Shown: piece by piece, positions 2,544-14,267 of the stretch | Numbering within the stretch: the first letter of the stretch is position 1 | How the letters are laid out: every line of letters starts with the position of its first letter | Assembly (NCBI GenBank): GCA_048550095.1 | Contig: JBLYYV010000100.1 | Location: 1-27,854, forward strand | DNA from: Gammaproteobacteria bacterium | GTDB taxonomy: Bacteria > Pseudomonadota > Gammaproteobacteria > Steroidobacterales > GCA-2729495 | Reading direction: 5' to 3' | DNA length: 27,854 nucleotides | The notes under the pieces: model-generated | What the model saw: only the letters and a program-made list of their open reading frames with translations | Databases searched by the model: none | What the model was told of the DNA's origin: nothing | Translations under genes and position numbers: made by a program

Positions 2544-3491
2544 TCAGGTGTTCTCGTCGAGCGGGCGCGGCAGCCGCATCGGCGAGTCCGGTAATCCGAG
2601 ACTCTCGAGCGACGGGCCGACGTGATCGTCGAACCATGCTTCGATGAGCCGGTAGGCGATCGAGACTTTCGGCGGGAGGATGATCTTCCGCTCGGCGATA
2701 TCTTCGCGACTTACCCAGCATGCCTCCGCCAGTTCTTCGTCGTTGCAAACGATGTCGGTGGACATTGCCGTCGCATGAAAGCCGATCATGATGGCCGCCG
2801 GAAACGGCCATGGCTGCGAGGCCAGGTAGCGACACTCTGCGACTTTTATATTCGTCTCTTCATGGACCTCGCGCCGCAAGGCGTCCTCGAGACTTTCGCC
2901 CGGTTCGACGAATCCGGCAATCGTCGAGAAGCGATTTTCAGGCCAGCTTGCCTGGCGGCCGAGCAGGCAACGTTCGCCATCGCCGACGAGCACGATGATC
3001 GCCGGGTCGAGGCGCGGAAAGCTGCGGTGGCTGCAATCGGGATCGGCGCACTCCATGACGAAACCCGCTTCGAGGAGGCGATTCCGTGAGCCACAAACCC
3101 CGCAGTAACGGTGCCGCTCCTGCCACGCGACCATCGCCCTCGCATACGCGGCGAGTGCCGCATCCTGAGCGAGCAAGCGCCCCGATGCCTCGCGCAGCCT
3201 GATGAATTCGCCGCGTCCTCCGGTCCAATTCTTGTCGTCCACGGCAACGCCGAATACATGCGCCTCGCCGAGTACGCCAAGAAAGGTTAACCGCTCAGGG
3301 TCGCCGATCAGATCGGCGGCGTCGTCGCGACTCAGCAACGCGAGTCGCTCGTTTTCGATCAGGAATCGGTCGTCGAGGACGGGGACGATCCTGCTCGACG
3401 ATCGTCGCAATGCCTCGTCGAGTGCCGCGGGTTGCGTACGCAGTTCGCTGCATCGGTCGATGTACTGGCCGGAAAAGACGATCGCATCCAT
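2544..3491 (-). CDS. nudC: NAD(+) diphosphatase / NAD-cap decapping Nudix hydrolase (start reassigned to the ATG at 3491)
   Basis: Zn ribbon YCGVCG...MEC...C, FPRLDPAIIV, Nudix box GFVEPGESLEDALRREVHEET and the NudC signature SQPWPFP. Confidence 0.95.
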   Translation of the reverse strand: MDAIVFSGQYIDRCSELRTQPAALDEALRRSSSRIVPVLDDRFLIENERLALLSRDDAADLIGDPERLTFLGVLGEAHVFGVAVDDKNWTGGRGEFIRLREASGRLLAQDAALAAYARAMVAWQERHRYCGVCGSRNRLLEAGFVMECADPDCSHRSFPRLDPAIIVLVGDGERCLLGRQASWPENRFSTIAGFVEPGESLEDALRREVHEETNIKVAECRYLASQPWPFPAAIMIGFHATAMSTDIVCNDEELAEACWVSREDIAERKIILPPKVSIAYRLIEAWFDDHVGPSLESLGLPDSPMRLPRPLDENT

Positions 3492-3537: not shown

Positions 3538-4104
3538 TCAGTTTCTGCGGCACTGGTCCTTGTACTCGCAGAGTGGGCAGCGCTCATAGTCCAGCGCGTA
3601 AGTATCCTGCACGTAAGGACCCCGGCAAGACTGGCACCAGGCGAGGCACAGTTCTCCGGTCTCGATCAGCGCGTGATAGAGATTCCAGCTCCATTCGAAA
3701 GAAAACTGCGGCTCGGGCACGAGATGCACATAGGTCTCGAATGCCTGGCAGACCCGTGCTCCGAGCGAAACGCGGTCGAGATCACGCAGCGGGGCTGGGC
3801 GCCGGTCGTCGTTCAGTTGAAATACGGAACAGCAGCCGAACAGGCAAGCGAGAATCGTGGCGTCCGTTTGTCGGCGTGAGCAATCGACGAATCGCGCGAT
3901 CTGGCGCGGCGATTTCCCGCGCCGTCGCTTGACGTCGTGCTGGCCAGCACCGCTGAAGTAGGTGCCATAGAGTTTGCGTATCCGATCCTCGGTAAAACCC
4001 GTGCACGAACGGATCGTGCCGGTCCTCGCCTCATGGCGGATCATCCGCACCGCCAGGTCGAATTTCTCGATTTCTCCCGTGTAGCGATCGTCCGTTACGC
4101 GCAT
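3538..4104 (-). CDS. FlhC-family transcriptional activator-like protein, 188 aa (target genes unknown)
   Basis: LAVRMIRHEARTGTIRSCTGFTEDRIRKLY aligns ungapped to E. coli FlhC [30 protein letters not shown] (recalled). GKSP, QAFETY and WNL..LIETGEL follow the FlhC pattern. Zn site C157-x2-C160...C176-x2-C179. AGGAG SD upstream of the ATG at 4104. Confidence 0.8.
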   Translation of the reverse strand: MRVTDDRYTGEIEKFDLAVRMIRHEARTGTIRSCTGFTEDRIRKLYGTYFSGAGQHDVKRRRGKSPRQIARFVDCSRRQTDATILACLFGCCSVFQLNDDRRPAPLRDLDRVSLGARVCQAFETYVHLVPEPQFSFEWSWNLYHALIETGELCLAWCQSCRGPYVQDTYALDYERCPLCEYKDQCRRN

Positions 4105-4160
4105 TTGCCAATCTCCTGAGTTTTCGGGGAAATGCGCCTGACGGCCAAATCCCTGCGTAA

Positions 4161-4200
4161 TTGTCGTTTTATGGTTTAATAAACCCATATATAGTATATC
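4161..4200. promoter_or_regulatory. AT-rich divergent promoter core between the FlhC-like and FlhD-like genes
   Basis: Overlapping -10-like hexamers TAGTAT (+, 4192-4197) and TATACT (-, 4198-4193). Imperfect inverted repeat TATGG-TTTA A TAAACCCATA at 4170-4189. No clear -35 elements. Confidence 0.4.
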
Positions 4201-4228
4201 TGTCGAGCAAGGGTAGGGGGAAACCAGA

Positions 4229-4846
4229 ATGCAATGCAAGTCTCCGGATACGCACATCTACGCTGAGCTGACGTCGCTAAACGCCGGCTTGCTTCGAATT
4301 CTCGTCTGGCAGGATCCGCGGGATACGCATGGCCAGCCGCGCCTGGCGCCGGAAATAGCGCTGCAGCTCCGTGGACTCACGCGGGAGCAACTCGCCTTTA
4401 TCGCCGGCACGCCCGCGTTGCTGGCCGGTTTCGTGCCATCGGCTGAAGCCGATCCGGCCGACCGTGTCGCTGATTCGGGCGCGTTCGCGCATCAGTACAT
4501 GCCTTCTGATCCGGTCGCCATCACGGCCGGCGCGCCCCGGCTGGCGGTCGACGAATGGTTGCGACTGACCCGCGTCTTTACCGCGACGCTGCTCACGTGG
4601 CTGTGGAAATCCGACCAGCACGATGAGTTGGTTCGTGCGTTGTGCATCGGCTGTGGGGAAAAGCTCCCGCAACTCAGCGTGCGCCGCATCGAGTCTCTCG
4701 CCACGGACGCGGCGCCGCGGTTGCGCGTGCGCTTTGCCGGGCATCCGCGCTTCTGGTCCGATCTGATCGCCGCCGCCCGGTCGGCGGATCCTCAGTTCCG
4801 CGCGCTGTCGCGATTGGCGGTTATACCGCTCGTATTGGCCGAGTGA
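4229..4846 (+). CDS. FlhD-like protein, 205 aa, apparently two tandem FlhD-like repeats
   Basis: Repeat 1: ELTSLN...LAPEIALQLRGLTREQLAFIAGTPALLAGF. Repeat 2: FTATLLTWLWKSDQHDELVRALCIG...LPQLSVRRIESLATDAAPRLRVRF. Both follow E. coli FlhD [25 protein letters not shown]...[24 protein letters not shown] (recalled). Adjacent to an FlhC-like gene; AGGGGG SD. Confidence 0.6.
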   Translation: MQCKSPDTHIYAELTSLNAGLLRILVWQDPRDTHGQPRLAPEIALQLRGLTREQLAFIAGTPALLAGFVPSAEADPADRVADSGAFAHQYMPSDPVAITAGAPRLAVDEWLRLTRVFTATLLTWLWKSDQHDELVRALCIGCGEKLPQLSVRRIESLATDAAPRLRVRFAGHPRFWSDLIAAARSADPQFRALSRLAVIPLVLAE

Positions 4847-4901: not shown

Positions 4902-5849
4902 ATGCACGCACTCTCGATCAGAAACCTGACCAAGGTCTATAAGAACGGTATTCAGGCCCTGAAGGGAATCGATCTGGACGTTGCCGAGGGCGATTTCTTC
5001 GCCCTGCTCGGGCCGAATGGCGCCGGGAAGACGACCGCGATCGGCATCATCACGTCGCTCGTAAACAAGAGCGCAGGCGAGGTGCGGGTATTCGGTCACA
5101 GCCTCGATTCGGCGCCGAATGCGGTCAAGGCGAGCATCGGGGTCGTGCCGCAGGAGATCAACCTGAATCAGTTCGATCAGGTCGAGAATTGTGTCGTCAA
5201 CCAGGCCGGTTTTTACGGCATTCCGCCTCACGAGGCGCAGCAACGCGCCAAGGTGATTCTGGAGCAGCTCTCCCTGTGGGACCGGCGCGACGATATCGCC
5301 CGTAACCTGTCCGGCGGCATGAAACGCAGGCTGATGATCGCTCGCGCGCTGGTGCATCAACCCAGGTTGTTGATCCTGGATGAGCCGACCGCGGGCGTCG
5401 ACATCGAAATTCGTCGATCGATGTGGCGCTTCCTGCGGGAACTCAACGAGTCGGGCACCACGATCATCCTGACCACGCATTACCTGGAAGAGGCAGAGAG
5501 CCTGTGTCGGCATGTCGCGATTATCGATGGCGGCGAAGTGATCCAGAATCATCCGATGGACGAGTTTCTCCGCACGCTCAAACAGCAGAACTTCATCGTC
5601 AACACCCGGGATCCGGTCGCCGCCGTCCCGGTGCTGGATGGCTGTGTCCTTTACAAGCGCAAAGATTACGAACTGGAGCTCGCGGTCCAGCGCGACCATG
5701 ACCTGAACGATGTGTTCGCGGCGTTGACGAAATCCGGCGTGCGCATCGTCAGTATGCGCAACAAAACCAATCGCCTGGAAGAGTTGTTCTTCAACCTGAC
5801 AGATCGCAGCGACCGGGTCGCGGCGATCGAGCCGGAGTCGGAAGCGTGA
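4902..5849 (+). CDS. yadG: ABC-2 type transporter ATP-binding subunit (YadG-like)
   Basis: Walker A GPNGAGKT, signature LSGGMKRR, Walker B LLILDEP, and C-terminal SMRNKTNRLEELF typical of YadG. Confidence 0.9.
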   Translation: MHALSIRNLTKVYKNGIQALKGIDLDVAEGDFFALLGPNGAGKTTAIGIITSLVNKSAGEVRVFGHSLDSAPNAVKASIGVVPQEINLNQFDQVENCVVNQAGFYGIPPHEAQQRAKVILEQLSLWDRRDDIARNLSGGMKRRLMIARALVHQPRLLILDEPTAGVDIEIRRSMWRFLRELNESGTTIILTTHYLEEAESLCRHVAIIDGGEVIQNHPMDEFLRTLKQQNFIVNTRDPVAAVPVLDGCVLYKRKDYELELAVQRDHDLNDVFAALTKSGVRIVSMRNKTNRLEELFFNLTDRSDRVAAIEPESEA

Positions 5850-6619
5850 CCCCGCGCCAGCAACTGGTTGCGCTGTATACGCTGGTGCGCAAGGAGATGA
5901 GCCGCGTCACGCGCATCTGGGTACAAACGATCGTGCCGCCTATCATCACCATGTCGCTCTACTTTCTGATCTTCGGCAACCTGATCGGTCGCCGCATCGG
6001 CCAGATGGACGGCTTCGACTACATGCAGTACATCGCGCCCGGCTTGATCATGATGTCGGTCATCCAGAATTCTTACGGCAACGTCGTGTCGTCGTTCTTC
6101 GGCGCGAAGTTTCAACGACATCTCGAAGAAATGCTCGTTTCACCGATGCCGACCTACGCCATTATCCTCGGCCATGTTGCCGGCGGCGTACTCCGCGGGT
6201 TGATGGTGGGTTTCATCGTCACGCTGATCGCGCTGTTTTTCACCGACTTGAAAGTCTCGAACGCGTTGATCACGTTGAGCATCGTGATCCTGACGGCCGT
6301 CGTATTTGCGCTGGCTGGACTGATTAACGCGATCTTCGCTCGCAAGTTCGACGATATTTCGATCATTCCGTCTTTCGTACTGGCGCCGCTGACCTATCTC
6401 GGTGGCGTGTTCTATTCGATTACGTTGCTGCCCGATTTCGCGCAGAAACTGTCGTTGCTGAACCCGATCCTGTACATGGTGAACGCGTTTCGCTACGGCA
6501 TGCTGGGCGTTTCGGATATCGAAATCGGCCGCGCCTATGCGATCATTTTCGTCTTCATCGCCGTATTGTTCGGCGCGAGCATGGTCCTGATGAAGAAGGG
6601 TATCGGGATCAGGGAGTAG
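5846..6619 (+). CDS. yadH: ABC-2 type transporter permease (YadH-like)
   Basis: Multiple hydrophobic helices; QTIVPPIIT, PGLIMMSVIQNSYGNVVSSFF and PLTYLGGVFYS. GTGA start/stop overlap with the ATPase gene. Confidence 0.9.
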   Translation: MTPRQQLVALYTLVRKEMSRVTRIWVQTIVPPIITMSLYFLIFGNLIGRRIGQMDGFDYMQYIAPGLIMMSVIQNSYGNVVSSFFGAKFQRHLEEMLVSPMPTYAIILGHVAGGVLRGLMVGFIVTLIALFFTDLKVSNALITLSIVILTAVVFALAGLINAIFARKFDDISIIPSFVLAPLTYLGGVFYSITLLPDFAQKLSLLNPILYMVNAFRYGMLGVSDIEIGRAYAIIFVFIAVLFGASMVLMKKGIGIRE

Positions 6620-6631
6620 TCGCGGCGTCTT

Positions 6632-7312
6632 ATGTGTGGAAGATTCGCTTTTTATTCGCCGCACGAGGCCGTCCAGGATGTCTTCGGCGTGACTTTCCCG
6701 GCGCCGCTGGAACCGCGCTATAACATCGCCCCGAGCAGTTTCATCGTCGCGTTACGAGCGGGTAGCGAGGAGACGATCGAACCCGCGATGCTGAAGTGGG
6801 GCCTGGTGCCCTCATGGGCGAAGGACCCGGCGATCGGCAACCGCATGATCAACGCGCGCGCCGAGACGGCGCACGAGAAGCCGTCGTTCCGCGCGGCATT
6901 CAAGCGCCGGCGCTGCATCATCCTGGCGGACGGCTTTTACGAATGGCATCGTGAGGGTGAGCACAAGACTCCGTATTTCATTGCCCTGCCGGAGCGACGT
7001 CCGTTTGCGATGGCCGGACTCTGGGAGCACTGGCAGGGGAGCGAAGGATCGGAGTTGCAGACCTGCGCAATTCTGACAACCGCTGCGAACGCTGTGATGA
7101 AACCCCTGCACGACCGGATGCCTATCATTCTGCCGCCCGAAGACGCGCGGCGCTGGTGCGGCCATGCGGCCGACGACCGGGCTGCGGCTGGTCGATGCCT
7201 GGCTCAGAACGAGAATGACCGGCTGGTGCACTGGCCCGTATCGACGGTCGTCAACAACCCGCGCAACGACGGTCCGGATCTCGTTGAACCGGCTCCGCCG
7301 AGCGAGGGCTAG
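6632..7312 (+). CDS. SOS response-associated peptidase (SRAP/HMCES/YedK family) abasic-site-binding protein
   Basis: N-terminal MCGRF with catalytic Cys2, PRYNIAP, WGLVPSW, INARAET, GFYEW, HDRMP and C-terminal VNNPRN. Confidence 0.95.
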   Translation: MCGRFAFYSPHEAVQDVFGVTFPAPLEPRYNIAPSSFIVALRAGSEETIEPAMLKWGLVPSWAKDPAIGNRMINARAETAHEKPSFRAAFKRRRCIILADGFYEWHREGEHKTPYFIALPERRPFAMAGLWEHWQGSEGSELQTCAILTTAANAVMKPLHDRMPIILPPEDARRWCGHAADDRAAAGRCLAQNENDRLVHWPVSTVVNNPRNDGPDLVEPAPPSEG

Positions 7313-9679: not shown

Positions 9680-9743
9680 TGACCGGTGCCTTTCGTAGTC
9701 GCCGCTATTCTAGGTGGAAGCGGGCCGGTTCGGTAGGGCTGGG

Positions 9744-10634
9744 TCAGGTGCGGCGCAAAACGATCATGTGCGCGAGATAGTCCAGGCCCTCGGTGTCGCA
9801 GTTCAACGAGTCGAGCTCGGCCAGCGCCATCTTCAGCAACTCGTCCGAACGCCGCCGCGCCTCGTCCATTCCGAGCAGACTCGGGTAGGTGGCCTTGTCG
9901 TGCGCGATGTCCGCACCCTGCTGCTTGCCGATTTCCTCCGTCGTGCCTTCGATATCGAGGATGTCGTCGCGGATCTGGAACGCCAGCCCCATATAGTCCA
10001 CGAATCGCTCCAGCCCATGCAGTTCGGTAGTCGAGCGCTCCGGCGGGCAATAGGCGGCCGACATGACGCTGGCGCGCAGCAAGCGGCCGGTCTTCAGCCG
10101 GTACATGTGCTCGAGTTCGGCGACGTCCAGATTCTGCCCTTCGGCGCCGATGTCGATTGCCTGTCCACCGGTCATGCCCTCCGATCCGCAGCATCGAGCG
10201 ATCAGGTCGATGATCCGTATCTTCTCGGCCGGGTAGTCGCGCAGGGCCGGCGCGCTGGCCAGTGTCATGAATGCCAGCGGCTGCAGCGCATCTGCCGCGA
10301 GTATGGCCGTCGCCTCGTCGAAAGCGCGATGAGTGGTGGGGCGGCCGCGGCGAAGATCGTCGTCGTCCATCGCCGGCAGATCGTCGTGCACCAGCGAGAA
10401 TGCATGCATCATCTCGATAGCGGCAGCCGGTGCGTCGAGCATGTCCACCGGTACGCCCAGCGCCTCGCCCGTTGCGTATACCAGCAGTGGACGGATTCGC
10501 TTGCCGCCGCCGAGCACCGAGTAGCGCATGGCTGCATGCAACTTCTGCGGTTTGACGCTGGGGCCCGGCAGGGCCTCGTCCAGTACGTTCTCGATGCGCT
10601 CGAGATAGCTATCGATACGGTCTTCGAATTTCAT
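9744..10634 (-). CDS. ispA: Farnesyl diphosphate synthase / geranyltranstransferase (start reassigned to the ATG at 10634)
   Basis: YSVLGGGKRIRP, FARM HDDLPAMDDDDLRRGRPT, GMTGGQAID, KTG and SARM FQIRDDILD. Confidence 0.93.
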   Translation of the reverse strand: MKFEDRIDSYLERIENVLDEALPGPSVKPQKLHAAMRYSVLGGGKRIRPLLVYATGEALGVPVDMLDAPAAAIEMMHAFSLVHDDLPAMDDDDLRRGRPTTHRAFDEATAILAADALQPLAFMTLASAPALRDYPAEKIRIIDLIARCCGSEGMTGGQAIDIGAEGQNLDVAELEHMYRLKTGRLLRASVMSAAYCPPERSTTELHGLERFVDYMGLAFQIRDDILDIEGTTEEIGKQQGADIAHDKATYPSLLGMDEARRRSDELLKMALAELDSLNCDTEGLDYLAHMIVLRRT

Positions 10635-10713
10635 GCGCCAAGCATAGAGATTTCGACAGTTCAGGCCAAATGTTGTTCGGCTAAACCGGGTTCGACCGAT
10701 TACAATGCGCTGC

Positions 10714-11703
<990 letters not shown>

Positions 11704-11723
11704 CTCGCCCGGGCCAGCATCGA

Positions 11724-12785
11724 ATGACTGTCGCGACTGCACCCGGAAAACTCGTCATCTTCGGTGACTATGCCGTGCTGGAAGGCGCACCGGCGGCGGC
11801 GACCAGCGTCGACGTCAGGGCGCATGCCCAGGTGGATGTGACCGACGGTCGCAACAGCGTCTTCATCGACCTGGCCGGCGGCAACGCCTACGACTTCGTC
11901 GTGGAACCGGGTGCCGACCTCGTCTGGACGACGGCTTCACCCGGCGACAGGGGCACGGTCGTTGCAGCCGTGCTCGATATCTGTCACGAACTCGTGCACT
12001 TGCGCGGTCCGATGCCTGCATTGCGCATCAGCCTGAATACCGATGCGTTTTTCACGCGCGCGAACGACCGTACCGAGAAACTCGGTCTCGGATCGAGCGC
12101 GGCGGTGCTCGTGGCACTGACCGGCGCGTTGCTCGACGCGTTGCGCGTCCCCGCCGAGCCGGATTCCCTGATCAGGATTTGTCACGAGGCACATCACCGG
12201 TTTCAGGGCGGGCACGGCAGTGGCATCGACGTGGCGACCGCCGTCCTCGGCGGGGTCATCGGCGTGCGTCGGGATCCCAAGAGCGAGTACCCGCTGGCCG
12301 AGTCTTTGCCATGGCCGGACGGCCTGCTGATGCTGGCGGTCTGGTCCGGCAGCAGCGCCTCCACCCCAGAGTTGCTGACACGATTCAATGCGTATCGGGA
12401 TCAGCACAAGGATGGATTTCGCACTCATCTGATGCATCTGGAGCGGTTCGCAGAACAGGCCGACGCGGCATGGCGGGAGGGTCGGGTAGCAGAAGTGCTG
12501 TCAGCGCTAACGGGCTATGACAATGCGTTGCGTGCGCTCGACTACGATGCGGGAATCGGCATCAACACCCAAGTTCATGAGCGCTTACGCGGCATGACCG
12601 AAAAGCATGGCGCGGTTTACAAGACTTCCGGGGCCGGCGGCGGTGACTTCGGGATCGTCCTGACAAATTCTTCGGAGGTGCTCGAGCAGGTTGCCGACGA
12701 AATGCGCGCTGCCGACTTCATGCTGCTCGATGCCGATCTGAACGCGGCCGGACTGTCGATCTCGCCCGGCGAAGACCCCTCTTAG
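11724..12785 (+). CDS. GHMP kinase, most like phosphomevalonate kinase (MvaK2 type)
   Basis: APGKLVIFGDYAVLE, KLGLGSSAA, AH..FQGGHGSGIDVA and K.SGAGGGD are typical of phosphomevalonate kinases. Starts 20 bp after mvaD. Confidence 0.8.
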   Translation: MTVATAPGKLVIFGDYAVLEGAPAAATSVDVRAHAQVDVTDGRNSVFIDLAGGNAYDFVVEPGADLVWTTASPGDRGTVVAAVLDICHELVHLRGPMPALRISLNTDAFFTRANDRTEKLGLGSSAAVLVALTGALLDALRVPAEPDSLIRICHEAHHRFQGGHGSGIDVATAVLGGVIGVRRDPKSEYPLAESLPWPDGLLMLAVWSGSSASTPELLTRFNAYRDQHKDGFRTHLMHLERFAEQADAAWREGRVAEVLSALTGYDNALRALDYDAGIGINTQVHERLRGMTEKHGAVYKTSGAGGGDFGIVLTNSSEVLEQVADEMRAADFMLLDADLNAAGLSISPGEDPS

Positions 12786-12800
12786 GATCGAGAGCCTGTC

Positions 12801-14267
12801 TTACTGAACGAAGCGGTAGTACTCGATTCCGGCATCCTGAAACGCATGGGTCGTTTCGGAACCGACGCGGTCGACGACGAATTCGGACTGCGGCGCGTAA
12901 TGAATGCCGGCGAGGCTCGAGCGGTCGCGCAACGCCAGGTATTGGTCGTGAGTCAGGTCAACCATCGGTAACAGCGCCGATTTGAATTCGATCGATCGCG
13001 CCCCGTGTTCCCAACCCGGTACCATGCGAATCGGAATGGCATCCGCGGCATCGCCGCTGCCGTAACCCACGAGCAGAATCTCCTTGCCCGTGACATCGAT
13101 CTCGTCGCAACTCGCTTCGTCGAGTCCCGCGGCGAGCCACGCAGGCAGTGCGGCCGTATACAGATTGCCGAGCTCGCGCATGCTCGCCGTGCCGAGCAAC
13201 ATCTTGTGTCGCACATACTGATCGAAAGCGTCGGAACGCCGGAACGATTTCAACACCTTAAGCCCGGCTGGAAAGATTTCGTCGCTGATTTTTTCGCGGA
13301 CACCGAACCCGGCGAGATCCGGAGTCCTGTCGACTTCGGCGACAAAGTCCGTGAACGCTACACCCGCAGAATCGCAATAGGACTGCAATTCGTCGTGATC
13401 CGCGGCGCCGCCATGCGCCAGGGCAAACAGGTAGGCCATGCCCCAGCCGGTCTCCGGCATGCGTTGATAAGGACGATGCATGAAGATCGCTTCGACGTTT
13501 CGAACGTGCTGCGCCGGGTCGATATCTCGTTTCCGGTACATGTCCTCGAGCGCGCGTTGCATCTCGTCGACATAGCAACTGGTCGAGTATTTGCCGTTGA
13601 ATACGGGGATATCGACGAAGTCCGGGCTGGCTCCGGTGCCGTTACGATTGATCAGCGGTTTGCGGAAATCGACGCCGCGGTAATCGGATGCGGTACCTGA
13701 TTCGGACAGGTCGATCGTTGCGATGGTCGGGTCAGCGCTCAGCAGCATGGCCACCGCGCCGGCGCCCTGGGTCGGTTCACCGCTGCTGCCGCGCTCATAC
13801 AGCGCCTTGTCCGCAGATACGACGATCGCAAGCGAGTCGCTGCCGTCAGTTGCCAGAAAGCGCAGCGCATTCTTGAGTCCGTAGACGCCGCCGAGGCATG
13901 CGTGCTTAAACTCGGGGACTTCGCAGTTGCGGGACAGGCCCGGCAGGCCGAGTCCCTTCAGTGCAGAGTCCACCATGCCCTTGATAATGACCGCGCCGGC
14001 GGAGTTGTCGGTACTCGATTCGGTGCCGAGGCCGAGGTAGCGAACCCGCGCCGGGTCGACGTCGTAATTCTGGATTAACCTCAATACCGCGTTGGCCGCC
14101 ATCGTGTAGACGCTCTGTTGCGGACCGAGCAAACGGAAGCCTGTGCCAACAACCTGGCGAATCTTGTCCCAGTCGGCACCGGTCCACTCGCACCATTGCT
14201 GCAAGTCCACCCGGTAGGGCGGTAAATACAGTGACAGTCCGCTGAGTCCGACGGGTCGTGAGTTCAT
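12801..14267 (-). CDS. mvaS: Hydroxymethylglutaryl-CoA synthase, long form (488 aa)
   Basis: GTES (E83), KHACLGG (C124), EPTQGAGAVAML, DFRKP, GKYS, HRPY (H264), GNLYTAAL (N368) and GYGSG. Converges on mvaD and the kinase. Confidence 0.88.
   Translation of the reverse strand: MNSRPVGLSGLSLYLPPYRVDLQQWCEWTGADWDKIRQVVGTGFRLLGPQQSVYTMAANAVLRLIQNYDVDPARVRYLGLGTESSTDNSAGAVIIKGMVDSALKGLGLPGLSRNCEVPEFKHACLGGVYGLKNALRFLATDGSDSLAIVVSADKALYERGSSGEPTQGAGAVAMLLSADPTIATIDLSESGTASDYRGVDFRKPLINRNGTGASPDFVDIPVFNGKYSTSCYVDEMQRALEDMYRKRDIDPAQHVRNVEAIFMHRPYQRMPETGWGMAYLFALAHGGAADHDELQSYCDSAGVAFTDFVAEVDRTPDLAGFGVREKISDEIFPAGLKVLKSFRRSDAFDQYVRHKMLLGTASMRELGNLYTAALPAWLAAGLDEASCDEIDVTGKEILLVGYGSGDAADAIPIRMVPGWEHGARSIEFKSALLPMVDLTHDQYLALRDRSSLAGIHYAPQSEFVVDRVGSETTHAFQDAGIEYYRFVQ

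What the first reader, a model, noticed from the sequence alone, without database searches (positions are those of the whole stretch)
3538..4846. Orphan, divergently transcribed FlhC-like / FlhD-like regulator pair: candidate undescribed master-regulator system
Seen: a 188-aa protein colinear with FlhC over its whole length (N-terminal LA..I..AR..T...R..KLY, G..P, WxL, CxxC..CxxC Zn site), head-to-head across 124 bp with a 205-aa FlhD-like protein. Known: FlhD4C2 is the flagellar master activator of enterobacteria and Betaproteobacteria, encoded as a co-directional flhDC operon. Homologues SetCD and AcaCD activate transfer of SXT/R391 ICEs and IncA/C plasmids. Here the pair is divergent and sits among housekeeping genes (nudC, yadGH), with no flagellar, chemotaxis or conjugation gene within about 28 kb. 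Inference: a third functional class of FlhDC-type sigma70 activator with an unknown regulon. Pipelines may already label the FlhC-like gene, but I know of no characterised system with this layout.
Basis: partly seen in the sequence, partly recalled or inferred. Interest (0 to 1): 0.85.

Follow-up and report, generated by a model that had tools for sequence, protein, structure and literature searches.

The report
Chromosomal FlhC / double-FlhD regulator pair
Two back-to-back genes encode a distant relative of the two-protein flagellar and plasmid "master switch" FlhDC, with the D subunit built from two fused FlhD-like domains. The pair is a core chromosomal feature of one mostly uncultured order of Gammaproteobacteria, is kept with or without flagella, and carries a genome-unique palindromic control site between its genes; its targets beyond its own locus are unknown.

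Summary
Window 3538-4104(-) encodes a 188-aa protein with the FlhC fold and an invariant Cys4 site. Across 124 bp, 4229-4846(+) encodes a 205-aa FlhD-superfamily protein.

What I add or correct:
- **Partner architecture.** It is not a single FlhD but two FlhD-like repeats in one chain. The plasmid activator AcaD (202 aa) has the same length and aligns colinearly.
- **Distribution.** The pair is a single-copy, syntenic core gene pair of one gammaproteobacterial order (35 of 41 relatives). It was found only in genomes of that order in a 400-genome class-wide sample. The two genes co-occur 1:1 and were divergent in all 23 loci examined.
- **Not flagellar.** 18 relatives, two of them closed genomes, have the pair but no FlhA.
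- **Operator.** A 24-bp palindrome (4168-4191, core TATGG-N10-CCATA) sits in the intergenic region. Its exact core occurs once per genome in four genomes. This points to autoregulation and control of the flanking yadGH and nudC units, not to a demonstrated large regulon.

"Third class" undercounts the known mobile-element relatives (SetCD, AcaCD, SgaCD, BisDC), but a chromosomal, non-flagellar, non-mobile branch is undescribed in the literature I could search. This scan has found the same kind of pair on other DNA in at least seven genomes. It is a new variant of a known kind.

The parts
3538..4104 (-). FlhC-like subunit, 188 aa. It has an N-terminal helical/HTH-like region that is nearly invariant in the family, an Arg-rich loop (RRRRGKSPR) and a C-terminal Cys4 zinc ribbon (C157, C160, C176, C179).
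   Evidence: ORF. Pfam FlhC 25.7 bits. Family profile versus PDB FlhC: 8J56_C E 8e-5, 2AVU_E E 6e-3. AF2 pLDDT 87.5, pTM 0.84. Foldseek top three hits are FlhC, TM 0.65-0.78, and the next hit has E>1. Invariant cysteines.
4105..4228 (.). Shared 124-bp divergent control region between the two start codons. Shine-Dalgarno-like AGGAG and GGGGGA lie before the two ATGs.
   Evidence: Read directly from the sequence. Intergenic length is 102-247 bp in 22 related loci. The consensus scan found no sigma70-like promoter.
4168..4191 (.). 24-bp palindromic candidate operator TTTATGGTTTAATAAACCCATATA (core TATGG-N10-CCATA). It ends 37 bp upstream of the partner's ATG. Its right arm overlaps a conserved TATAGT(A), a possible -10 element at 4190-4195.
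   Evidence: Conserved inverted repeat in the pair's intergenic region across the order. The exact core occurs once per genome in G000, G013, G020 and G021. Hits with at most 1 mismatch: 13 in 3.5 kb of pair intergenic DNA against 1 in 302 kb of flanks. Leave-one-out PWM: 34.9 bits against 23.2 for the next best site in 3.09 Mb.
4229..4846 (+). Partner, 205 aa: a single-chain double FlhD. Repeat 1 spans about residues 8-68 (4250-4432). A poorly conserved linker spans about 69-103. Repeat 2 plus C-terminal helices spans about 104-205 (4538-4843).
   Evidence: No Pfam hit for this sequence. 28 of 91 family members hit Pfam FlhD. N-half profile versus FlhD 8J56_A E 1.2e-6. C-half profile versus 8J56_A E 1.7e-5 over FlhD residues 9-103. 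AF2 pLDDT 85.7, pTM 0.81, with two helix-helix-helix-strand repeats. VIA-align best of 48,161 chains is FlhD, Z 6.0, rmsd 2.2 A, on model residues 108-169.
4902..6619 (+). yadG-like ABC ATPase (4902-5849) and yadH-like ABC-2 permease (5846-6619). They are co-directional with the partner and start 55 bp downstream of it, so they probably form one operon with it.
   Evidence: Pfam ABC_tran and ABC2_membrane. The same order yadH-yadG-partner<>FlhC-like is kept in all loci of the window's family and in several other families.
2544..3491 (-). nudC (NADH pyrophosphatase type Nudix). It lies 46 bp downstream of the FlhC-like gene on the same strand and is probably co-transcribed with it.
   Evidence: Pfam NUDIX, NUDIX-like and Zn_ribbon_NUD. 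Conserved downstream of the FlhC-like gene in most loci. Only a weak terminator-like hairpin lies between the genes.

Best explanation
The two genes encode the C and D subunits of an FlhDC-superfamily heteromeric transcription factor of the AcaCD/SetCD architectural type. The C subunit is a zinc-ribbon FlhC-like DNA-binding protein. The D subunit contains two FlhD-like domains in one chain, an intramolecular 'FlhD dimer', so the complex is probably C2:D'2 rather than C2:D4.

This version is fixed in the core chromosome of one order of Gammaproteobacteria and inherited vertically. It is independent of flagella and of conjugative elements.

I infer that the complex binds the 24-bp palindrome in its own 124-bp divergent promoter region. 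From there it would autoregulate and control the two flanking transcription units, partner-yadG-yadH and flhC-like-nudC. Because the right arm overlaps a probable -10 element, the effect on the partner/yadGH unit is more likely repression or a MerR-like switch than classical upstream activation. Further, weaker targets may exist but are not established.

Shown: homology and fold of both proteins, the double-FlhD architecture, strict pairing, synteny, distribution, independence from flagella, and the conservation and uniqueness of the palindrome.

Inferred: complex formation, who binds the palindrome, the sign of regulation, and the signal.
For: - **Homology and fold:** for C; for D.
- **AcaD comparison:** AcaD is 202 aa and aligns colinearly with the partner over both halves (hhalign P 1e-4). 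AcaC aligns with the C family (E 1e-5). AcaC and AcaD co-purify and both are needed for activity (PMC4207636).
- **Pairing:** FlhC-like is present in 35 of 41 relatives and the partner in 34 of 41, in the same genomes. The one apparent exception, G035, has a weak partner hit. The genes are adjacent and divergent in 23 of 23 loci, including loci with different neighbours and a paralogous copy.
- **Vertical inheritance:** identity falls with kinship, from 66-90% within the genus (one 73%-complete MAG, G002, is at 46%) to 53-62% within the family and 38-51% within the order.
- **Not flagellar:** 18 genomes have the pair but no FlhA, including closed genomes G013 and G020. Three have FlhA without the pair. 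FleQ-type sigma54 activator genes sit 14-19 kb from flhA in flagellated relatives.
- **Operator:**. Half-sites change together in distant lineages (for example AATTGC...GCAATT in L026 and TGCCA...TGGCA in L070) while position and symmetry are kept.
Against:
- No transcript data; no RNA run was listed.
- The consensus scan finds no sigma70-type promoter in the intergenic region, so promoter positions are guesses.
- The palindrome could be bound by one subunit alone or by another factor.
- In three families of the order and in a more distant lineage, yadGH and nudC are not adjacent. There the FlhC-like gene precedes a CitMHS/TrkA_C transporter, so control of yadGH/nudC cannot be the universal function.
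- Direct similarity between the two halves of the partner is weak (hhalign P 6e-4 to 6e-3). The repeat rests on each half matching FlhD.
- VIA Z of 6.0 is modest for a helical protein, and Foldseek found no PDB match for the whole partner model.
Confidence: 0.62

Rival explanations
1. It is simply the flagellar class I master regulator (FlhDC) of this lineage, diverged in sequence and gene order.
For: The own genome does have flagellar genes (FlhA on contig C127). Pipelines name some orthologues 'flagellar transcriptional regulator FlhC'. The FlhC fold is shown.
Against: 18 relatives have the pair without FlhA, including two closed genomes and several at 96-100% completeness. Three have FlhA without the pair. 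Flagellated relatives carry FleQ-type sigma54 activator genes next to their flagellar clusters. No flagellar gene lies in the window or in any of about 30 related loci. The palindrome's exact core is absent from the rest of each genome, so flagellar promoters do not share it.
Confidence: 0.05
2. It is a mobile-element activator, or a recently captured remnant of one, like AcaCD/SetCD, that still controls excision or transfer genes of an island.
For: Its architecture is closest to AcaCD. A paralogous divergent pair in relative G021 lies beside a VirB4/TraC-like ATPase and a Cus-like RND efflux cluster, an ICE-like setting.
Against: The window's pair is single-copy, held in conserved synteny with housekeeping genes across the family, and tracks the species tree. 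No integrase, relaxase or T4SS gene is in the window. GC content at the locus is only slightly below the window average. A single-sequence tblastn of the ICE-like paralogue found no plasmid match.
Confidence: 0.04
3. It is a global or pleiotropic regulator whose main regulon lies elsewhere, for example among signalling genes. The palindrome would be only its autoregulatory site.
For: Known family members are master activators with many targets (PMC4207636, PMC4542580). The N-terminal half of the C subunit is almost invariant, which suggests strong constraint. There are 9 PWM hits of at least 14 bits in the genome against 0-3 in shuffles. Those examined lie near GGDEF, Hpt/sigma54-regulator, HD-GYP-like and MarR/ABC-exporter genes. 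The MarR/ABC site recurs in 4 of 8 genomes of the genus, and the HD-GYP-like site recurs in G003. Neighbours differ between lineages.
Against: Secondary sites score far lower (23 bits or less against 35). They are AT-rich stretches in a GC-rich genome. One lies inside a probable coding frame. G003, which keeps the HD-GYP-like site, lacks the pair in its assembly. No coherent functional theme is established.
Confidence: 0.24
4. The palindrome is the operator of some other regulator, or the FlhC-like protein acts alone on DNA while the double-FlhD protein is a modulator or anti-factor rather than a co-binding subunit.
For: No binding data exist. In E. coli, FlhC carries the DNA-binding activity and FlhD modulates specificity (background knowledge; Claret and Hughes 2000, cited in PMC7423338).
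Against: The palindrome travels with the pair into every genomic context examined and is unique in the genome, which rules out a global factor's site. Strict 1:1 co-occurrence and adjacency and the AcaCD precedent favour a complex.
Confidence: 0.1

Closest known systems
AcaCD, master activator of IncA/C (IncC) conjugative plasmids, with relatives SetCD (SXT/R391 ICEs), SgaCD (SGI1), AqaCD and AsaCD (PMC4207636, PMC4542580)
   Same: It is a two-subunit FlhDC-superfamily regulator. The C subunit is about 183-190 aa with the FlhC domain and Cys4 ribbon. The D subunit is about 200 aa, twice the size of FlhD, with the recognisable FlhD domain in its C-terminal half and an extra N-terminal module. 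AcaD (202 aa) aligns colinearly with the partner family over both halves. AcaC aligns with the C family. Both are non-flagellar.
   Different: AcaCD and its relatives are encoded on mobile elements as co-directional D-C operons under Acr/SetR-type repressors and activate tra/xis genes. Here the genes are divergent, chromosomal, core and vertically inherited, with no transfer genes, and carry a unique palindrome in their own promoter region. Sequence relationship is remote (hhalign P 1e-4 to 1e-5). AcaD's N-half gave no Pfam FlhD hit.
FlhD4C2, flagellar class I master regulator of Enterobacterales and Burkholderiales (PDB 2AVU, 8J56, 1G8E)
   Same: The C subunit has the FlhC fold over its full length (TM 0.65-0.78) and the same four-cysteine zinc site. 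Each half of the partner is homologous to FlhD.
   Different: FlhD is a 116-aa protein that homodimerises; here two FlhD-like modules are in one 205-aa chain. flhDC is a co-directional operon, whereas this pair is divergent. The window's proteins fall below the Pfam and NCBIfam thresholds (25.7 against 27 bits; 25.6 against 216 bits). Presence is uncoupled from flagella.
BisDC of ICEclc (PMC7423338)
   Same: It is a two-subunit activator named by analogy with FlhDC. BisC carries DUF2857 and shows structural similarity to FlhC. A few members of the partner family give weak DUF2857 hits (8 of 91, best E 0.0017).
   Different: BisD is a ParB-like protein with no FlhD domain. BisDC is ICE-borne and part of a bistability feedback loop. 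No ParB domain is present here.

Membership tests
FlhC (Pfam PF05280 / NCBIfam NF009365) | Profile match above the curated threshold | tested here: not met
   Pfam 25.7 bits against a cut-off of 27, C-terminal 52 residues only. NCBIfam equivalog 25.6 bits against 216. However, 29 of 30 orthologues match Pfam FlhC at E<0.01, best 2.7e-9. It is a superfamily member, not an FlhC equivalog.
FlhC (Pfam PF05280 / NCBIfam NF009365) | FlhC three-dimensional fold over the whole chain | tested here: met
   The AF2 model (pLDDT 87.5) has as its top three PDB hits 2AVU_E, 8J56_F and 8J56_C, at E 6.5e-6 to 1.2e-5, TM 0.65-0.78 and 176-178 aligned columns. The next hit has E 1.4.
FlhC (Pfam PF05280 / NCBIfam NF009365) | Four-cysteine zinc site (CxxC...CxxC) | tested here: met
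   C157, C160, C176 and C179 are invariant in 30 orthologues and align with the FlhC cysteines.
FlhD4C2 flagellar master regulator | Co-occurs with, and controls, flagellar genes | tested here: not met
   18 of 35 pair-bearing relatives lack FlhA, including closed genomes. Three FlhA-bearing relatives lack the pair. Control of flagellar promoters is not testable here.
FlhD (Pfam PF05247) | Sequence homology to FlhD | tested here: met
   The window's protein alone gives no hit. 28 of 91 family members hit PF05247, best 1.5e-8. The N-half profile hits 8J56_A at E 1.2e-6 and the C-half profile at E 1.7e-5.
FlhD (Pfam PF05247) | Single-domain protein of about 116 aa that forms a homodimer | tested here: not met
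   The protein is 205 aa with two FlhD-like repeats joined by a variable linker.
AcaCD/SetCD-type mobile-element activators | C subunit of about 180-190 aa plus D subunit of about 200 aa with a C-terminal FlhD domain | tested here: met
   AcaD is 202 aa with Pfam FlhD at residues 106-179. AcaC is 183 aa. Alignments with the partner and C families are colinear.
AcaCD/SetCD-type mobile-element activators | Encoded on a conjugative or mobilisable element as a co-directional D-C operon that activates transfer genes | tested here: not met
   The pair is divergent, chromosomal, syntenic and core. No transfer genes are in the window. Activation of transfer genes is not testable here.
Heteromeric C/D complex (any FlhDC-type) | Physical complex of the two subunits | not testable with these tools
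   Only indirect evidence: 1:1 co-occurrence and adjacency in 23 of 23 loci, and homology to complexes with solved structures or shown co-purification.
BisDC | D subunit with a ParB/CTP-clamp domain | tested here: not met
   The partner has no ParB hit.

The most novel reading that the evidence does not exclude
The pair is a domesticated, order-wide chromosomal descendant or sister of mobile-element 'master activators'. It works as a C2:D'2 complex with a single-chain FlhD pseudo-dimer and has been rewired into a tightly autoregulated switch for a physiological programme unrelated to motility or DNA transfer, such as envelope or export functions, or c-di-GMP signalling. It would also reveal that the D subunits of AcaCD/SetCD-type activators are in general fused double FlhDs.
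Probability: 0.3. Interest if true: 0.7.

Novelty: new variant of a known kind. Interest (0 to 1): 0.55.

Why it matters
FlhDC-type regulators are textbook master switches for flagella. Their mobile-element relatives drive the spread of multidrug-resistance plasmids and ICEs.

A vertically inherited, non-flagellar, non-mobile branch that is near-universal in an abundant sediment and rhizosphere lineage shows that the family has a third way of life. It also provides a natural single-chain FlhD dimer, which fixes the subunit stoichiometry and could clarify how the poorly understood AcaD/SetD subunits are built.

The genome-unique palindrome makes the system directly testable by EMSA, DAP-seq or reporter fusions, even though the hosts are mostly uncultured.

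In addition, it corrects annotation: calling these genes 'flagellar transcriptional regulator FlhC' is misleading.

Tried and rejected
- **Foldseek of the whole partner model against PDB** gave nothing significant. The FlhD match appeared only with the exhaustive VIA-align search.
- **Direct repeat-versus-repeat hhalign** is weak, so I argued the repeat through FlhD instead.
- **Single-sequence phmmer of the FlhC-like protein against PDB** found no FlhC. The family profile was needed.
- **The search for related loci with the single protein** returned only two named MAGs, labelled Chromatiaceae and Chromatiales. I could not determine the GTDB order name myself.
- **tblastn of the ICE-like paralogue against plasmids** found no match.
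- **pVCR94 (KF551948)** is not in the plasmid collection, so I used pAR060302 instead.
- **RNA evidence:** no RNA-seq run holding the locus was listed. DNA runs are rhizosphere and marine-sediment metagenomes.
- **Regulon inference by motif scanning** gave only weak secondary sites without a coherent theme. I treat them as leads, not findings.
- **The FleQ Pfam search** is noisy because of receiver-like domains. Only the hits of about 450-490 aa next to flhA were used.
- **Literature searches** for a described chromosomal non-flagellar FlhC/FlhD family found none.
Full report
**1. Observation**

The ORF table and sequence show two genes.
- The minus-strand frame 3538-4257 has its conserved start at the ATG at 4104, giving 188 aa. 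All 30 aligned orthologues begin MRVTD, preceded by AGGAG.
- The plus-strand ORF 4229-4846 gives 205 aa.
- The start codons are 124 bp apart.

**2. The C gene**

On its own the protein is below family thresholds.
- Pfam FlhC scores 25.7 bits against 27, covering the C-terminal part only.
- The NCBIfam FlhC equivalog scores 25.6 bits against 216.
- Single-sequence phmmer against PDB misses FlhC.

Homology is nevertheless solid.
- More than 1,775 homologues exist in metagenomes and MAGs, and 29 of 30 sampled hit Pfam FlhC.
- Their profile hits FlhC of Cupriavidus (8J56_C, E 8e-5) and E. coli (2AVU_E, E 6e-3) as the top two PDB sequences, with the N-terminal helices also in register.
- The AF2 model (pLDDT 87.5, pTM 0.84) matches only FlhC chains in the PDB: E about 1e-5, TM 0.65-0.78, 176-178 aligned columns, with the next hit at E 1.4.
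- The four cysteines C157, C160, C176 and C179 are invariant.

**3. The D gene**

The 205-aa protein has no Pfam or NCBIfam hit, and the word-indexed search finds only 25 relatives. An exhaustive profile search finds 197 cluster representatives, nearly all 190-230 aa.

The alignment shows two conserved modules split by a variable linker. Evidence that both modules are FlhD-like:
- Of 91 diverse members, 28 hit Pfam FlhD, best 1.5e-8.
- When the halves are scanned separately, 32 of 91 N-halves and 8 of 91 C-halves hit FlhD.
- The N-half profile hits the three FlhD entries of the PDB (8J56_A E 1.2e-6; 1G8E E 7.7e-5; 5HXG E 1e-4).
- The C-half profile hits 8J56_A at E 1.7e-5 over FlhD residues 9-103.
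- The AF2 model (pLDDT 85.7, pTM 0.81) has two helix-helix-helix-strand repeats, at 8-68 and 104-167, followed by C-terminal helices.
- Foldseek finds nothing for the whole model. An exhaustive alignment to 48,161 chains ranks FlhD first: 8J56_A, Z 6.0, rmsd 2.2 A, 61 of 65 residues, on repeat 2.
- Direct repeat-to-repeat similarity is weak but in register (P 6e-4 to 6e-3).

The partner is therefore a single-chain double FlhD. The first-stage note e1-5299831 had the same idea.

**4. Relation to known systems**

AcaD of IncC plasmid pAR060302 is 202 aa and AcaC is 183 aa.
- AcaD's Pfam FlhD domain lies in its C-half.
- AcaD aligns colinearly with the partner family across both halves (P 1e-4; N-half alone P 8e-4).
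- AcaC aligns with the C family (E 1e-5).
- AcaC and AcaD co-purify, and both are required for activation (PMC4207636).

Known FlhDC-like activators outside flagella are SetCD, AcaCD, SgaCD, AqaCD and AsaCD (PMC4542580) and BisDC (PMC7423338). All are on mobile elements. Full-text searches found no description of a chromosomal, non-flagellar family.

**5. Distribution and inheritance**

The own genome is a MAG of 3.09 Mb in 430 contigs, 87% complete. It has no other FlhC or FlhD match.
- Among 41 relatives including the own genome, the C gene is present in 35, in 28 of 30 high-quality genomes and in 14 of 17 families of the order.
- Identity decreases with kinship.
- The D gene is present in the same genomes. 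In G035 it is detectable only weakly.
- In a 400-genome sample of the class, only the four genomes of this order match.
- Named records are MAGs labelled Chromatiales, Chromatiaceae or Gammaproteobacteria.
- Source samples are rhizosphere and marine-sediment metagenomes.

**6. Synteny**

In all loci of the window's family, and in several other families, the order is yadH<-yadG<-partner<>FlhC-like->nudC.

In three other families and in a more distant lineage, the pair instead precedes a CitMHS/TrkA_C transporter, in the three families also DUF885, and trp genes.

In every one of 23 loci scanned with HMMs, the two genes are adjacent and divergent. The same holds in two further distant loci, L069 and L070.

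One relative, G021, has a second, 25%-identical pair beside a VirB4/TraC-like ATPase and a Cus-like RND system, which is an ICE-like setting.

**7. Not flagellar**

FlhA is found in 20 of 41 relatives.
- 18 genomes have the pair but no FlhA, among them the closed genomes G013 and G020.
- Three have FlhA but not the pair.
- FleQ-type sigma54 activators of about 450-490 aa lie 14-19 kb from flhA in flagellated relatives.
- The window contains only housekeeping and signalling genes.

**8. Control region**

The intergenic regions share a palindrome with consensus T-W-T-A-T-G-G-N10-C-C-A-T-A-T-A. It often extends to TATAGTA on the partner's side and is sometimes present in two to four copies.
- In the window it is at 4168-4191, ending 37 bp before the partner's ATG.
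- The exact 10-base core occurs exactly once in each of G000, G013, G020 and G021, always here.
- With at most 1 mismatch there are 13 hits in 3.5 kb of pair-intergenic DNA against 1 in 302 kb of flanking DNA.
- A PWM built without the window's site scores it at 34.9 bits, against 23.2 for the next best position in the genome.
- Distant lineages keep the symmetry and position but change both half-sites together.

This is the signature of a dedicated operator that co-evolves with the pair. Who binds it is inferred, not shown.

**9. Regulon leads (weak)**

Nine sites of at least 14 bits occur in the genome, against 0-3 in shuffles.
- The five best-scoring, which I examined, lie near a GGDEF protein, an Hpt/sigma54 response-regulator unit, a MarR/ABC-exporter divergon, an HD-GYP-like gene, and inside a probable nucleotidyl-transferase gene next to lptD.
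- The MarR/ABC site recurs in 4 of 8 genomes of the genus. The HD-GYP-like site recurs in G003, whose assembly lacks the pair.
- I do not regard a regulon as established.

**10. Verdict**

This is a real, conserved and undescribed chromosomal branch of the FlhDC superfamily, architecturally nearest to AcaCD. It has a fused double-FlhD subunit, divergent genes and a unique autoregulatory-type palindrome.

It is not the flagellar regulator, and it is not shown to be a master regulator.

The same kind of pair has been reported by this scan on at least seven other genomes with concordant follow-ups. I reached the above independently before reading those notes.

Noticed in passing
L032 (G021:C1:951613-964137), pair at about 5995-7310: A second, 25%-identical divergent FlhC-like/double-FlhD pair in a closed relative genome. 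It lies beside a VirB4/TraC-like conjugative ATPase (960 aa) and a Cus-like RND efflux cluster (DUF411, OEP, HlyD, AcrB). This is an ICE-like context, suggesting exchange between mobile and chromosomal versions. No palindrome of the chromosomal type was seen in its intergenic region.
   Followed up: partly
L021, L026, L027, L070/L071: An alternative conserved context in other lineages: PALP enzyme ... partner<>FlhC-like -> CitMHS/TrkA_C transporter -> (DUF885) -> trpE(GDCFB). In both context types a transporter gene lies next to the pair.
   Followed up: partly
G000:C397:5008 (L040 2509), between a 615-aa ABC exporter and a MarR-family gene: A palindrome resembling the operator (AATCTGGTCTGATCGGCACATATA, 19 bits). 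Similar sites of 15-18 bits occur in the orthologous intergenic region of 3 further genomes of the genus. It may be a secondary target or the MarR protein's own operator.
   Followed up: partly
G000:C251:1663 (L041) and G003 (L052 1018): An operator-like palindrome about 0.5-0.6 kb upstream of an HD-GYP-like (HD_5) gene, conserved at 25.6 bits in G003, whose assembly lacks the pair. A further weak site lies upstream of a GGDEF protein (C113:1273). A c-di-GMP link is possible but speculative.
   Followed up: partly
window 9680-14267: Mevalonate-pathway genes (HMG-CoA synthase at 12801-14267; MVD/GHMP-kinase genes in the syntenic L003) lie next to ispA and an exeA/T2SS-B-like pair in a gammaproteobacterium. 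First-stage notes e1-5299832 and e1-5299833 also recorded this. The same genes are syntenic in distant relatives.
   Followed up: no
window 6632-7312 (+): An SRAP (YedK-type, SOS-response-associated peptidase) gene lies directly after yadH. It is conserved at that position in several relatives.
   Followed up: no
I confirmed only the GGDEF-EAL domains.
   Followed up: no
AFDB cluster A0A0S7Z000: One structural relative of the partner is auto-named 'AraC family transcriptional regulator', and some C orthologues are named 'flagellar transcriptional regulator FlhC'. Both names are probably misleading annotations for this family.
   Followed up: no
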